Shown here one piece after another: positions 44,953 to 57,244 of a stretch of DNA of 64,000 nucleotides; the stretch's first letter is position 1; each line of letters opens with the position of its first letter. Under the pieces are notes generated by a model. The model was not told where the DNA came from. It saw nothing but the letters and a program-made list of their open reading frames with translations, and searched no databases. The stretch lies in the NCBI RefSeq assembly GCF_030013595.1, contig NZ_CP122768.1. The stretch is one strand, 5' to 3'. The position numbers and the translations under genes were made by a program. The DNA comes from Escherichia coli (GTDB lineage: Bacteria > Pseudomonadota > Gammaproteobacteria > Enterobacterales > Enterobacteriaceae).

Positions 44953-45353
44953 GTAAAAAAAACGAGTTCACCCGCAACATCATCCAGCTCAACGATTTCA
45001 CGCTCCAGCGCCATATCAAGAGGGATTGTGTCGTAACCTTTGCCCTCCACCGGATAAACAAGGTTTGCCAGGCGAATTATTTCGTTCACCAGCGTATTAC
45101 GAACTCCCTTATCATCGTCCCAGATACCGGAATCACGCGAGATCCGCTCCAGCATCAGAAAAGCAACGCGCGGCCCGGCAACGACGCCAAGACCTTCGGA
45201 GAAAATGGCAGAAAAAGTTTTACTCAGAATGAAGAAATGCTCTTTAAACACCTCTTTGCTGATCGGCGTGGCGTGAATCCAGGCTTTACCTTTCTCGGTC
45301 TGGACAGGAATAATCAGGTTTAAATTTCGCGCGATTTTCATACCAAATCCCAC
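44724..45353 (-). CDS. tail assembly chaperone (upstream ORF of putative frameshift pair)
   Basis: 209-aa ORF between tube-like gene and tape measure; C-terminal 76 codons overlap a second ORF in the -1 frame. Confidence 0.5.
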   Translation of the reverse strand: MGFGMKIARNLNLIIPVQTEKGKAWIHATPISKEVFKEHFFILSKTFSAIFSEGLGVVAGPRVAFLMLERISRDSGIWDDDKGVRNTLVNEIIRLANLVYPVEGKGYDTIPLDMALEREIVELDDVAGELVFFTCVSSINSPEQAKGTLDVVNGIWSTQYSSLNLTDWIASLPTLKSAASSGATVNTSSATSSTTQPEPDSETSVQIPV

Positions 45354-45781
45354 ATTTCAGAGTTGATGTAATACGTACCGGTAATGGTGATGGCCACACC
45401 CGGCTCGCCCCCGGCGAAGGTCATATCCTGCACGTTGGTGATCGCCGTGTTATAGATATCGAAGTCACCGAACACCGTGCTGTCGCTATACACTTTTGCG
45501 TCGCCGATCGTGGCGTTTTTTTCCCATTGCGCCTTGAATTGTTTTCCCAGCGCCTGGCTACGCAGCAGATGAACACGCGCCTGTAAAATCATGTATGGCT
45601 GCGGCGACTGCACGGCTCCCGTCATAGCGGGTAAAAACTCCGTGATATTGCCCTGAAAGGACAATTCGACGCCTTCTTTTGCCAGAAATGAGGCGGACAC
45701 ATTCAGTTCGGAATGAGAGGTGAATTTAACGCTGGCGCGAACCCGGTTAAGGGTGCCAACGGGGATCATTGGATTAGGCAC
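45338..45781 (-). CDS. putative tail tube protein
   Basis: 147-aa ORF between sheath-like gene and chaperone pair. Confidence 0.45.
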   Translation of the reverse strand: MPNPMIPVGTLNRVRASVKFTSHSELNVSASFLAKEGVELSFQGNITEFLPAMTGAVQSPQPYMILQARVHLLRSQALGKQFKAQWEKNATIGDAKVYSDSTVFGDFDIYNTAITNVQDMTFAGGEPGVAITITGTYYINSEMWDLV

Positions 45782-45792
45782 GGTTCAGTCCC

Positions 45793-47130
45793 TCACGAAA
45801 GCTGCATTGTCACATTGATGTTAAAAATGATTTCGACAAATCCGCGCATCGGCGTATAGGAGGCCGAAAGGCCCGCATAACGCCCGATACCGTAATCATT
45901 CGGATTAGTGTTGATATACTGGCGGAAAGGCACTGCATCGACGACAGGCTGACCGTTGACCAGGCCGTAAGATACGCCCGTATTGAACACCGCCTGTGCG
46001 ACCTGCTGTAGACGGTCGATCCCGTCCTGGTTGTAGTAAAGCGGGTTAATTGGGTTATTGCTGCCGTTGATCACCGTGTTGGCGAGCTGCATATCGACAT
46101 TAATCTGCACCCAGTCCACGGAATACCAGTACGTCATATCGTTACCGTCACTGGTAACGCCTTTCACCAGGATCGTGTTGGAGATTCCGCCCTCAGCCCC
46201 CGTTTCGACGTAGTTAATATTCTGCTTCGTCATCGTGGCCAGAATGGAATTTTTGCCCTTGTGGGCGTTTACCGCCTGCAGATAGCGAAATGCCATCGGC
46301 GGCACCTTGTTGATTTCTGAAGGTGATGCGGAAACATAGTTCCACATTACGGCTGCTGCCGCGTTTGTCGCCGGGTACGTATCATCCGCCGTTGCAATAA
46401 CCGACTTAATACCGGCATAAGGCGAAACGTAATTCGTGTCATCCGGCGTTTTCGTCAGCACGAAGAAATACTGCATCGCTTCGTTGGCGGTGTGGAGTTT
46501 TGCCAGACAGATAAACTCCGCATCACCATCCCACGTCTGCGGTACCAGATAAGCGTAAAAACGCTGGAGCGGATCTTCCATATAAGATTTCAGCGCAGCG
46601 ATTTCCTTACTGACTCCGCCTTTCTGTACTCCCAGCTCCAGCAGGTAAATCCCCACTGAATTTCCCTGGGCAAAAAACGTGTTTACTGCCGTCACCAGAT
46701 TTTCACTGCCAGCAATGGAAAACTGCCCCAGCGTCACTGGAGAACCGGAAAGCTGAGAACCAGTAATAGTCCAGGTCAGTGTTTTTTCATCCGTGACGGT
46801 AGCAGTATATTCGCCATTCCACGCGTCGGGCGAACACCCGGAAACAACAATTTTCACCTCAGAACTGTTTTCGCGTCGGATGTTGCTCCCTTCCGGAAGC
46901 GCCATCGTAACGGTGACGTTTGCCGCAGCTCTTCCTGCGGCAGCTGCCGACAAGGCAGCAATCGGATTTTTAACCAGTTCGTTAATGTCCTGATTACGGG
47001 TGAGTAATACGGGTTTTCCCGGTTCATGAGTCGTGGAACCAAACGAGAGAATCGCAGCCATCTGTTGCAGATTCGAGGGTATGGCCCCGATGGTCTGGGA
47101 CACATTCACCGTGACGATATTAAATCCCAT
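45793..47130 (-). CDS. putative tail sheath protein
   Basis: 445-aa ORF upstream of tube-like gene; size and order consistent with contractile-tail sheath. Confidence 0.5.
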   Translation of the reverse strand: MGFNIVTVNVSQTIGAIPSNLQQMAAILSFGSTTHEPGKPVLLTRNQDINELVKNPIAALSAAAAGRAAANVTVTMALPEGSNIRRENSSEVKIVVSGCSPDAWNGEYTATVTDEKTLTWTITGSQLSGSPVTLGQFSIAGSENLVTAVNTFFAQGNSVGIYLLELGVQKGGVSKEIAALKSYMEDPLQRFYAYLVPQTWDGDAEFICLAKLHTANEAMQYFFVLTKTPDDTNYVSPYAGIKSVIATADDTYPATNAAAAVMWNYVSASPSEINKVPPMAFRYLQAVNAHKGKNSILATMTKQNINYVETGAEGGISNTILVKGVTSDGNDMTYWYSVDWVQINVDMQLANTVINGSNNPINPLYYNQDGIDRLQQVAQAVFNTGVSYGLVNGQPVVDAVPFRQYINTNPNDYGIGRYAGLSASYTPMRGFVEIIFNINVTMQLS

Positions 47131-55908: not shown

Positions 55909-56989
55909 TATCCACTCCCGGCATCGGCAGAGAGTTGTGGATAATTATTTCGTTATTCTCACCACCCACGCCTTTTTTGAGGTTTTCAATCTCAGTGCGC
56001 AGCTTTTCGTTGCGAAGCCTCAGTCCTTCAAGCTCCAGATCATTGCGACTGTCAGTTGCACCACCAGCAGAACTTCCTTTCGTCGCCGTTATCAGCTTGA
56101 TAAGTTCGCGCCGGGCGGCAGCCTTATCCTCCAGCAGGATCTCAACGCCGAATTTTCCGAGCTTTGCCCCTGCATATAATTGCCGCGCATCCCCATCAAG
56201 TAGAGTGGTATCAGCCATATAAAGCTGTCCCGTTCCCTCACCGCAGCACTTCGGGCAGTCCGGATTGGGTATGGCGTTATCAACAAAGCCGAGGCCTCCA
56301 TATTCTGGTTCAGGCTTACCGTCTTTAGATGCCTGCGCTGCTGCCCTGTCAAATTCTGCTATATCTCGCCACTGGTAGAGGTGATTCTCCCCCCAGCAAT
56401 AACGGCAGTTAACACGGCGAAATTGTGAAATCTGATTGGGATCAGCCTGGACAATGGCCATCAACTGGCTCACCAGTAAATCCAGGTCTGCGGTATAGCG
56501 TTTCTGGTACTGATTGCGGAACCATGAGATAGCCCGATAAACCTTAACATTTCTTAACAGACGTGAGGCTGCGGCACTTGCTACGTTTCCCGTTCCCTCG
56601 TAACCCGCTAGGCGGTATGCCTCGATGAGGTTTTTACCCTGCGCAACCAGCATGGCGAATTTTGCCTGCTGGTCAGAAATGCCGAATTCATCGGGACAGA
56701 ATGAAAATTCCTCCGCGTCGCCCTCATTCAGACACGCATCGGATACTGGCTTTTTTTTCTGAGATTTTCCGTTCCGCTTTTGCGCAGTCTGCGCAGATTT
56801 TTTCTGCGCACTTTGTTGCGCAGTTTTGCACATTTCTGTCTGCGCATTTTTCGGAGGTTTTTTGATGTAACGACGGGCTGTTGCGTAATTCAGTCCCCTT
56901 GCCTCACACCATGCCACCGGAGATACACCGGAGCGGGTGTATTCAGCAATATATTCCTGCTGCAACGCCCCCCAGTCCGGTCTGCTCAT
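55898..56989 (-). CDS. putative terminase small subunit / DNA-recognition protein
   Basis: 363-aa ORF with N-terminal HTH-like segment (GVSPVAWCEARGLNYATARRYI), Cys-rich C-terminal region; overlaps terminase large start. Confidence 0.45.
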   Translation of the reverse strand: MSRPDWGALQQEYIAEYTRSGVSPVAWCEARGLNYATARRYIKKPPKNAQTEMCKTAQQSAQKKSAQTAQKRNGKSQKKKPVSDACLNEGDAEEFSFCPDEFGISDQQAKFAMLVAQGKNLIEAYRLAGYEGTGNVASAAASRLLRNVKVYRAISWFRNQYQKRYTADLDLLVSQLMAIVQADPNQISQFRRVNCRYCWGENHLYQWRDIAEFDRAAAQASKDGKPEPEYGGLGFVDNAIPNPDCPKCCGEGTGQLYMADTTLLDGDARQLYAGAKLGKFGVEILLEDKAAARRELIKLITATKGSSAGGATDSRNDLELEGLRLRNEKLRTEIENLKKGVGGENNEIIIHNSLPMPGVDNVD

Positions 56990-56992
56990 CAG

Positions 56993-57244
56993 TTAATCCT
57001 GATTTTTATCCACCCTGAGTAGTTCGCGCAGGGCAAAGGCATCCCCTTTTCTGGCAAGCTTAAACAATGCCGCCCGTAGCTCGGCTTCACCTTTCGCTCT
57101 GCCCTTACGGATGGACGCATAAAAATTTGTCATTGCTTCCCGATTTTCTTTCAGTCGGTTCAGATCAACATCCAGAAAGTTAGCGATTTGTTGTGCAGTC
57201 ATCCGGCACGCTGCCAGAGACTCGACTTTCGAATACGGAATCAT
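56993..57244 (-). CDS. small HTH-like phage protein
   Basis: 83-aa ORF (..MTAQQIANFLDVDLNRLKENRE..) at head of packaging operon. Confidence 0.4.
   Translation of the reverse strand: MIPYSKVESLAACRMTAQQIANFLDVDLNRLKENREAMTNFYASIRKGRAKGEAELRAALFKLARKGDAFALRELLRVDKNQD

What the first reader, a model, noticed from the sequence alone, without database searches (positions are those of the whole stretch)
45338..57244. Mosaic prophage: lambdoid regulation and lysis joined to a contractile-tail-type morphogenesis module
Q, YbcO-like, Rz and Rz1 are lambda-like. The structural block instead has a sheath-like 445-aa protein, a tube-like 147-aa protein, a chaperone frameshift pair, a tape-measure-like protein and a baseplate J-like gene, which together look myovirus-like. 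Structural assignments are mostly positional, so this needs confirmation.
Basis: inference. Interest (0 to 1): 0.35.

Follow-up and report, generated by a model that had tools for sequence, protein, structure and literature searches.

The report
Lambdoid prophage with contractile-tail genes
This is an ordinary mosaic E. coli prophage of an already sequenced type (Rac-SA53-like), in which lambda-style late control and lysis genes are joined to genes for a contractile, myovirus-type tail.

Summary
The window holds an E. coli prophage at the Rac attachment site, about 96.5% identical to the published phage Rac-SA53. The 445-aa protein is a tail sheath. It matches PHROG "tail sheath" (E 1.9e-52). 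A confident AlphaFold model (pLDDT 88.9) matches chains of solved contractile tails and related injection machines (E down to 1.9e-13). The 147-aa protein is probably the tube, but that model is poor; its matches are mostly tube/Hcp-fold proteins. The chaperone pair is real. An eight-T slippery run in the same phase, plus an open -1 frame reaching the tape-measure start, is conserved in six lineages. Hub, baseplate J, tape measure, portal and terminases are present and intact. Q-like antiterminator, YbcO, holins, endolysin, Rz and embedded Rz1 are also confirmed. A Rac-like siphovirus shares 92-93% DNA identity with the Q region and the 5' part of terS. That identity stops inside terS at about 56105. 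Yersinia relatives carry the same structural module on a lambdoid backbone and show contractile tails by electron microscopy. The stated coordinates cover only part of the features named. Nothing here is new in kind. The modest additions are functional labels for genes filed as "hypothetical" and an unannotated frameshift.

The parts
30464..30489 (.). Prophage attachment-site core next to uspF; marks the left end of the prophage
   Evidence: Exact match to the 26-bp site annotated attB in Rac-SA53
30804..31370 (-). DUF4376 protein, a distal partner of the tail fibre
   Evidence: PF14301 E 4e-17
31367..33370 (-). Tail fibre with a lambda Stf-type N-terminal domain
   Evidence: PF08400 E 9.1e-62; phrog_2636
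33394..33942 (-). Tail fibre assembly protein
   Evidence: PF02413 E 2.2e-22; phrog_136 E 1.4e-54
33945..35420 (-). Tail fibre
   Evidence: phrog_6859 and phrog_454, both 'tail fiber'
35417..36043 (-). 208-aa baseplate protein in the position of P2 gpI / Mu gp48; the role is inferred from position only
   Evidence: phrog_8212, unknown function; conserved directly after J in L003, L005 and L008
36027..37265 (-). Baseplate J / gp6-like wedge protein
   Evidence: PF04865 E 8.7e-8; phrog_6 E 1.8e-38
37275..39149 (+). Opposite-strand insert of three genes (182 aa, 157 aa, AntA antirepressor) inside the baseplate operon
   Evidence: PF08346 E 8e-27; no PADLOC match; absent from relatives L003, L005 and L008
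39125..39472 (-). 115-aa conserved baseplate protein in the gp25/gpW position; this role is unproven
   Evidence: phrog_7986, unknown function; 51-83% identical in relatives; no PDB or Pfam match
39926..40639 (-). 237-aa protein in the spike (gpV) position; the role is inferred from position only
   Evidence: No family match; annotated 'putative baseplate protein bppV' in Rac-SA53
40639..41646 (-). Baseplate hub
   Evidence: phrog_196 'baseplate hub' E 2.4e-45
41646..42577 (-). Two conserved small tail genes (88 aa and 222 aa) between the tape measure and the hub
   Evidence: phrog_8737 and phrog_7750, both unknown function; colinear in all relatives
42581..44662 (-). Tape-measure protein with a C-terminal lytic transglycosylase domain
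   Evidence: PF01464 SLT E 8.4e-27; phrog_2276 and other tape-measure families
44724..45341 (-). Tail assembly chaperone, 0-frame product of 205 aa (G-like)
   Evidence: phrog_11810; lies between the tube and the tape measure
44659..44962 (-). Slippery run G TTT TTT TTA (44955-44962) followed by the -1 frame extension; the fusion product would be 227 aa (GT-like)
   Evidence: Eight-T run in the same phase and an open -1 frame of 97-107 codons in 6 lineages; the -1 ORF matches phrog_14324
45338..45781 (-). Probable tail tube protein (147 aa)
45793..47130 (-). Contractile tail sheath protein (445 aa)
   Evidence: phrog_205 E 1.9e-52; AF2 pLDDT 88.9; Foldseek matches to solved contractile-tail chains, E down to 1.9e-13
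47130..49450 (-). Four conserved genes (314, 151, 146 and 170 aa) in the head-completion, neck and tail-terminator position; functions not shown
   Evidence: Only PHROGs of unknown function; colinear and 32-64% identical in relatives
49466..50494 (-). Probable major capsid protein (342 aa)
   Evidence: phrog_264 'major head protein' E 1.6e-8; the most conserved gene of the module
50509..52366 (-). 205-aa head protein and a DUF2213 protein resembling a prohead protease or scaffold
   Evidence: PF09979 E 2.6e-6; phrog_530 'head maturation protease' E 4.2e-11
52347..53183 (-). Head morphogenesis protein
   Evidence: phrog_324 E 2.7e-37
53125..54564 (-). Portal protein
   Evidence: phrog_146 E 2.2e-74; PF06381 E 2.5e-14
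54580..55908 (-). Terminase large subunit
   Evidence: phrog_2 E 7.4e-36; PF03237
55898..56989 (-). Terminase small subunit. The recombination joint lies inside it at about 56105
   Evidence: phrog_51 E 8.6e-69. 92% nt identity to siphovirus vB_EcoS-666R9 from 56105 to 57319 and none below 56105
56993..57244 (-). 83-aa ORF resembling an internal piece of another small-terminase family
   Evidence: phrog_309, profile positions 145-218 of 319, E 7.1e-22
57700..58158 (-). Rz spanin, with Rz1 (57741-57947) embedded in another frame
   Evidence: PF03245 E 3e-38; the Rz1 ORF has an LVVSAC lipobox and a PPPPP tract
58319..58888 (-). P22-type antirepressor inserted in the lysis cassette
   Evidence: PF10547 E 9.1e-45
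59100..60137 (-). M15 peptidase endolysin and two holins
   Evidence: PF13539 and PF05449; PF16931
60195..61413 (-). Pertussis-like AB5 toxin genes (A 60688-61413, B 60195-60677), cargo placed after the late terminator
   Evidence: PF02917 E 4.1e-15; GC 38%; eplA/eplB in Rac-SA53
61694..61723 (-). Terminator-like hairpin just downstream of the Q-like gene; a candidate target of Q antitermination
   Evidence: 12-bp stem plus a T tract. This is a pattern match only
61801..63241 (-). Q-like antiterminator (61801-62343), YbcO (62340-62630) and a DUF1367/NinB-like protein (62630-63241)
   Evidence: 93% nt identity to Rac-like phage vB_EcoS-666R9

Best explanation
The region is the late half of a Rac-site lambdoid prophage of E. 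coli, very close to phage Rac-SA53. Its virion genes are a myovirus-type module.

Proposed mechanism. A Q-like antiterminator lets transcription read through a terminator. Transcription then runs along one strand for about 31 kb. It passes the toxin cargo, holins, endolysin, Rz/Rz1, terminases, portal, head genes, sheath, tube, chaperones, tape measure, baseplate and fibres. The tail is built on a P2/Mu-like simple baseplate of hub, J-type wedge and fibres. The tube polymerises around the tape measure with help from two chaperone products. These products are made from one gene by a programmed -1 ribosomal frameshift at U UUU UUU. The 445-aa sheath polymerises around the tube and contracts on infection.

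The structural module was joined to the lambdoid backbone by recombination inside terS. The chimeric small terminase keeps a backbone-type N-terminal part and a module-type C-terminal ~68 residues next to its own large terminase.

Shown here: gene identities, the sheath fold, conservation of the frameshift signal, and the recombination joint.

Inferred: transcriptional read-through, actual frameshifting, tube identity, and particle production.
For: - Identity to Rac-SA53 is 96.5% over 88% of 39900-57300. The Rac-SA53 att core is found exactly at 30464-30489.
- Sheath: phrog_205 E 1.9e-52; AF2 pLDDT 88.9; Foldseek matches to sheath-bearing assemblies Bas63, Sf14, PhiTE, E217, pyocin R2, Mu and T4.
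- Other structural genes: hub and J; tape measure with SLT; portal, terminases and head genes.
- Frameshift: an eight-T run in identical phase and an open -1 frame in six lineages, with sheath identity down to 37%.
- All 22 structural ORFs are colinear and similar in length to those of an inducible phage, vB_YenM_29.18. [quoted passage not shown]
- The joint with a Rac-like siphovirus backbone lies at about 56105.
- Q, YbcO, holins, endolysin, Rz and Rz1 are confirmed. A terminator-like hairpin follows Q.
Against: - The tube model is low confidence (pLDDT 55.6). No sequence-level match links the tube to any named family.
- The gp25-like sheath initiator and the spike are assigned by position only.
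- Pfam PF11863 (DUF3383) is not matched by this protein or by 45 relatives.
- No particle from this strain has been seen.
- The early half of the prophage lies outside the window, so integrity and inducibility are unknown. A near-identical prophage in ETEC1732 has a frameshifted terS.
- The late promoter was not identified. The promoter scan is at chance level.
Confidence: 0.9

Rival explanations
1. The prophage is a defective remnant, like Rac of E. coli K-12. Its contractile-tail genes would then be carried but no longer make infectious particles.
For: - The Rac locus of K-12 is a classic cryptic prophage (own knowledge).
- A 98.6% identical copy in ETEC1732 has a frameshifted terS.
- Foreign genes sit inside the baseplate operon at 37275-39149 and inside the lysis cassette at 58319-58888.
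- The integrase and immunity half is not in the window.
Against: - All 22 structural ORFs, terS included, are open here and match the lengths seen in an inducible relative.
- The baseplate insert is also present in Rac-SA53.
- The frameshift signal is intact.
Confidence: 0.3
2. The module makes a headless contractile particle (a tailocin or injection system) rather than a phage tail.
For: The sheath and tube folds are shared with pyocins, AFP/PVC and T6SS.
Against: - Terminases, portal, capsid-like and head-maturation genes sit directly upstream in one colinear operon.
- Relatives are plaque-forming phages with heads.
Confidence: 0.03
3. The tail is non-contractile, and the 445-aa protein has some other virion role.
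For: - There is no Pfam match.
- Every public record calls the gene 'hypothetical protein'.
Against: - PHROG 'tail sheath' E 1.9e-52.
- A confident model whose matches are chains of contractile tails and related machines.
- EM of relatives shows contractile tails.
Confidence: 0.03

Closest known systems
Escherichia phage Rac-SA53 (KU052037; Jobling 2016, Pathog Dis 74:ftw001, cited from the reference list seen)
   Same: - Same attachment core and the same Rac/uspF locus.
- 96% nucleotide identity from 44194 to 56837, and 94-96% over most of the tail genes.
- Same Q-YbcO-DUF1367 block, at 83% identity.
- Pertussis-like toxin genes in the same position.
   Different: - The window lacks the LT-IIa genes that Rac-SA53 carries between endolysin and terS.
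- In that interval the window has a P22-type antirepressor and Rz/Rz1, and its endolysin is an M15 peptidase.
- The toxin and holin genes are only 70-79% identical.
Yersinia phages vB_YenM_06.16-1 / vB_YenM_29.18 (group 1; PMC9224151)
   Same: - The whole structural module from terS to the baseplate is colinear, at 21-59% protein identity.
- The same eight-T frameshift site is present.
- The backbone is lambdoid: int, xis, cIII, cI, cro, cII, O, P, nin, RusA, holin, R, Rz, Rz1.
- A contractile tail was seen by EM.
   Different: - Different host.
- No DNA-level similarity outside terL.
- Different fibres, no toxin cargo, and no insert in the baseplate operon.
Felixviridae (RothC/RothD, vB_Kpn_Chronis, Pantoea PdC23; ICTV 2025, PMC12451628; bioRxiv 10.1101/2024.12.02.626457)
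   Same: - Sheath 36-38% and tube 38-41% identical.
- Mostly temperate phages of Enterobacteriaceae.
- A conserved structural core of about 20 kb with variable remaining genes.
   Different: Family membership is defined by whole-genome similarity, which was not computed here. The protein identities are low enough that this prophage may fall in a neighbouring family.
Rac-like siphovirus Escherichia phage vB_EcoS-666R9 (ON470614)
   Same: 92-93% nucleotide identity in Q-like/YbcO/DUF1367 and in the 5' 885 nt of terS with the upstream ORF; 82% in Rz.
   Different: Its structural genes are a P22-coat-like head and a lambda-type non-contractile tail (tape measure H, tip proteins M and L). They share nothing with the module here.
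Programmed -1 frameshift in tail assembly chaperones (lambda G/GT, P2 E/E+E'; own knowledge of Xu et al. 2004)
   Same: - Location between the tube gene and the tape-measure gene.
- A slippery heptamer of the X XXY YYZ type.
- Two products sharing an N-terminus.
   Different: The 0 frame continues 54-76 codons past the slip site. The two products are therefore similar in size (191-205 aa versus 227-236 aa) and have alternative C-terminal parts. Frameshifting itself was not measured.

Membership tests
Contractile (myovirus-type) phage tail module | A sheath protein with the contractile-sheath fold | tested here: met
   phrog_205 E 1.9e-52; AF2 pLDDT 88.9; Foldseek matches to solved contractile-tail chains, probability 1.00, E down to 1.9e-13
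Contractile (myovirus-type) phage tail module | A tube protein of the Hcp/gp19 fold encoded next to the sheath | tested here: inconclusive
Contractile (myovirus-type) phage tail module | Baseplate hub and a J/gp6-type wedge protein | tested here: met
   phrog_196 E 2.4e-45 and phrog_6 E 1.8e-38; PF04865
Contractile (myovirus-type) phage tail module | A gp25/gpW-like sheath initiator | tested here: inconclusive
   The 115-aa protein is in the right place and is conserved. It has no Pfam, named-PHROG or PDB match
Contractile (myovirus-type) phage tail module | Tape measure preceded by a chaperone gene with a programmed frameshift | tested here: met
   SLT-bearing tape measure. Conserved eight-T site and open -1 frame in 6 lineages. 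This is sequence evidence only
Contractile (myovirus-type) phage tail module | Tail contraction seen on particles | not testable with these tools
   Seen by EM only for relatives (vB_YenM group 1)
Lambdoid phage late region | A Q-type antiterminator upstream of the late operon, followed by a terminator | tested here: met
   phrog_753 'Q-like' E 4.6e-77. DUF1133 E 2.8e-104, and PF06530 at 25.8 bits against a cut-off of 26. Terminator-like hairpin at 61694-61723 (a pattern match only)
Lambdoid phage late region | A holin-endolysin-Rz/Rz1 cassette between Q and the terminase genes | tested here: met
   The cassette is interrupted by an antirepressor gene
Lambdoid phage late region | A cI/cro-type immunity region and O/P-type replication genes | not tested
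   These lie beyond the window end. The near-identical prophage in ETEC1732 has ydaT/ydaV-type genes there
Pfam PF11863 (DUF3383) | A match to the family model | tested here: not met
   No match at E <= 0.01 for the window protein or for 45 diverse relatives. Some close relatives do carry precomputed PF11863 hits or the source name 'DUF3383'
Rac-SA53-type prophage | Same integration site and near-identical structural genes | tested here: met
   Exact 26-bp att core; 96.5% identity over 88% of the query
Felixviridae (ICTV 2025) | Whole-genome similarity and shared core genes at the family thresholds | not tested
   Only protein identities of 36-41% for sheath and tube were obtained

The most novel reading that the evidence does not exclude
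The structural module may belong to a contractile-tail lineage that has not been structurally characterised. Its solved-structure neighbours are only 10-13% identical in the sheath. Most of its roughly 20 virion proteins match no named family. Its chaperone gene carries an unannotated -1 frameshift with an unusually long stretch coding in two frames, which gives two products of similar size. If particles were solved, some neck or baseplate parts could prove new.
Probability: 0.3. Interest if true: 0.3.

Novelty: already known. Interest (0 to 1): 0.15.

Why it matters
The practical value lies in annotation. In all 14 phage records that hold the sheath gene, and in the E. coli genome hits listed (87 genomes matched), it is labelled "hypothetical protein". 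The chaperone frameshift is not annotated in the two records examined. This prophage type carries a pertussis-like AB5 toxin directly behind the Q-controlled terminator, and it is found largely in pig enterotoxigenic E. coli. Knowing that it has an apparently intact myovirus-type virion module is useful for judging whether the toxin genes can move between strains. It does not open a new biological question.

Tried and rejected
- Pfam found nothing for sheath, tube, neck, capsid, hub, spike or the gp25-position protein.
- Sequence and profile searches of the PDB found nothing useful for the sheath, the tube, the 115-aa protein or the hub.
- I expected the sheath to be a DUF3383 member. Tested on 46 sequences, this failed.
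- The tube AlphaFold model from 22 sequences was poor. A profile search found 645 relatives, but none of the 120 listed had a Pfam domain or an informative name.
- PADLOC found no defence-system match for the inserted genes.
- The promoter scan was at chance level, so no late promoter is claimed.
- The original Rac-SA53 paper could not be read. What it says about tail type is unknown to me.
- I compared conservation of the two frames after the slip site. The contrast was weak: 25% and 32% for the 0 frame, against 18% and 35% for the -1 frame. I therefore rest the frameshift claim on the conserved eight-T run, its phase, and the open -1 frame.
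Full report
**What is there.**
The window is E. coli chromosome. nifJ, ompN and uspF lie at 24671-30264 on the plus strand. A prophage follows them. Its 26-bp att core at 30464-30489 is identical to the site annotated in phage Rac-SA53. From there to the window end, nearly all long ORFs are on the minus strand. The region 39900-57300 is 96.5% identical to Rac-SA53 over 88% of its length. The larger region 36000-60900 is up to 98.9% identical to prophages in complete E. coli genomes, mostly pig enterotoxigenic strains. Eighty-seven of 5,426 complete genomes carry the sheath and tube genes at 95% identity or more.

**Checking the observation.**
- The 445-aa ORF (45793-47130) and the 147-aa ORF (45338-45781) are adjacent.
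- Upstream of them lie terminases, portal and head genes.
- Downstream lie a chaperone gene, a 693-aa tape measure with a lytic transglycosylase domain, two small genes, a hub, a 237-aa protein, a 115-aa protein, baseplate J, a 208-aa protein and two sets of fibre genes.
- The Q-like gene, YbcO, a DUF1367 protein, two holins, an M15 endolysin and Rz are confirmed by Pfam and PHROGs.
- Rz1 is an embedded ORF with a lipobox (LVVSAC) and a proline tract.

The stated coordinates (45338-57244) hold only the tube-to-terS stretch. The other named features lie on either side of it.

**The sheath.**
Pfam gives nothing. PHROGs places the protein in phrog_205 "tail sheath" at E 1.9e-52 over nearly its full length. 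An exhaustive search found 333 cluster representatives with E-value up to 0.001. An alignment of 46 of them gave a confident AlphaFold2 model (pLDDT 88.9, pTM 0.86). Foldseek against the PDB returned chains from contractile phage tails, R-type bacteriocins and contractile injection systems as the 50 best matches. These include Bas63, Sf14, PhiTE, E217, XM1, Pam3, Listeria Lin1278, Milano, pyocin R2, Mu, T4 and AFP, with E down to 1.9e-13. Sequence identity to those structures is only about 10-13%. This explains why sequence searches of the PDB failed. I expected membership of Pfam DUF3383, but neither this protein nor 45 relatives match it, so I do not file it there.

**The tube.**
The 147-aa family has no Pfam model, no informative name and no PDB sequence match. 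The AlphaFold2 model is poor (pLDDT 55.6), although its strand-and-helix pattern fits a tube protein. Two independent structure searches returned mostly the tube/Hcp fold:
- Foldseek: tube chains of PhiTE, Pa193, Sf14, Bas63 and E217 (E 7e-4 to 4e-3).

With its position between sheath and chaperone, this makes a tube assignment probable but not proven.

**The frameshift pair.**
The chaperone ORF (44724-45341, 205 aa) contains G TTT TTT TTA at 44955-44962. This is a U UUU UUU heptamer in the 0 frame. The -1 frame is open from there for 98 codons and ends at the tape-measure start. I fetched five other lineages with sheath identity of 37-62%. One of them is the isolated phage vB_YenM_29.18. All have an exact eight-T run in the same phase. 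All have a -1 frame open for 97-107 codons to the tape-measure start, and a shared motif (YG..F..D....R..W....I..LDY...GF). The predicted products are 191-205 aa and 227-236 aa. Eight-base A or T runs occur only six times in the whole window. The -1 ORF matches phrog_14324. Neither Rac-SA53 nor the RefSeq annotation marks a frameshift.

**Mosaicism.**
The phage vB_EcoS-666R9 is a Rac-like siphovirus with a P22-coat-like head and lambda-type tail genes. Its similarity to the window is as follows:
- 93% nucleotide identity across the Q-like gene, YbcO and DUF1367 (61694-63272).
- 82% within Rz.
- 92% from 57319 down to 56105.
- None below 56105.

The break lies inside terS at about codon 295 of 363. 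The C-terminal ~68 residues therefore travel with the neighbouring large terminase and the rest of the module. That is where one would expect a viable joint. The 93% block ends at a terminator-like hairpin just after Q (61694-61723). The low-GC pertussis-like toxin genes follow it.

**Relatives and what is known.**
Only 14 of 50,697 phage records carry this sheath, all labelled "hypothetical protein". [quoted passage not shown] Their genome combines int, xis, cIII, cI, cro, cII, O, P, nin genes, RusA, holin, R, Rz and Rz1 with the same colinear structural module. Others are Klebsiella phages RothC, RothD and Chronis, and Pantoea PdC23. These were placed in the new family Felixviridae in 2025 and are described as having a conserved structural core of about 20 kb and variable remaining genes. 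A lambdoid backbone carrying this myovirus-type module is therefore already sequenced, published and imaged.

**Mechanism.**
The most likely working is standard. Q-dependent read-through of the late operon leads to lysis by holin, endolysin and spanins. Packaging uses a chimeric small terminase together with its large terminase. The tail is assembled on a simple baseplate, with the tape measure and two chaperone products, then tube, then sheath. I put this at about 0.9. The main open question is whether this particular copy is active. All 22 structural ORFs are intact and match the lengths in an inducible relative. However, the early region is outside the window, and a sister copy has a broken terS.

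**Verdict.**
The feature is an ordinary, already known kind of mosaic prophage. Interest is low.

Noticed in passing
window 60195-61413 (- strand): Genes for a pertussis-like AB5 toxin (ADP-ribosyltransferase A subunit and B subunit). GC is about 38%. They sit directly after the terminator that follows the Q-like gene, as stx genes do in Stx phages. They are named eplA/eplB in Rac-SA53.
   Followed up: partly
window 37275-39149 (+ strand): Three opposite-strand genes (182 aa, 157 aa and an AntA antirepressor) are inserted between the 115-aa baseplate gene and baseplate J. Relatives L003, L005 and L008 lack the insert. The two unknown proteins have no Pfam or PADLOC match.
   Followed up: partly
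window 58319-58888 (- strand): A P22-type antirepressor gene splits the lysis cassette between the endolysin and Rz. Rac-SA53 carries the LT-IIa toxin genes in the endolysin-to-terS interval instead.
   Followed up: partly
window 53125-54564 (- strand): RefSeq names this gene 'anti-CBASS protein Acb1 family protein'. By position, PHROG (portal, E 2.2e-74) and Pfam Phage_portal_3, it is the portal protein. The RefSeq name looks misleading.
   Followed up: partly
phage record PP818812.1 (hit H1): 'Actinobacillus phage vB_Apl-pPE4' is 96.6% identical to this E. coli prophage over 94% of the query. The stated host seems doubtful.
   Followed up: no
window 56993-57244 (- strand): An 83-aa ORF just upstream of terS matches only an internal part (positions 145-218 of 319) of a different small-terminase family. 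It may be a leftover from an earlier exchange.
   Followed up: no
window 31367-33370 (- strand): The distal tail fibre has the 'prophage tail fibre N-terminal' domain (PF08400, E 9.1e-62), which I recall as the lambda side-tail-fibre (Stf) type (own knowledge). The fibre end of the module would then also be mosaic.
   Followed up: no
window 47130-49450 (- strand): Four conserved genes between capsid and sheath (314, 151, 146 and 170 aa) match only PHROGs of unknown function. They presumably encode neck, head-completion and tail-terminator proteins, but none was identified.
   Followed up: no
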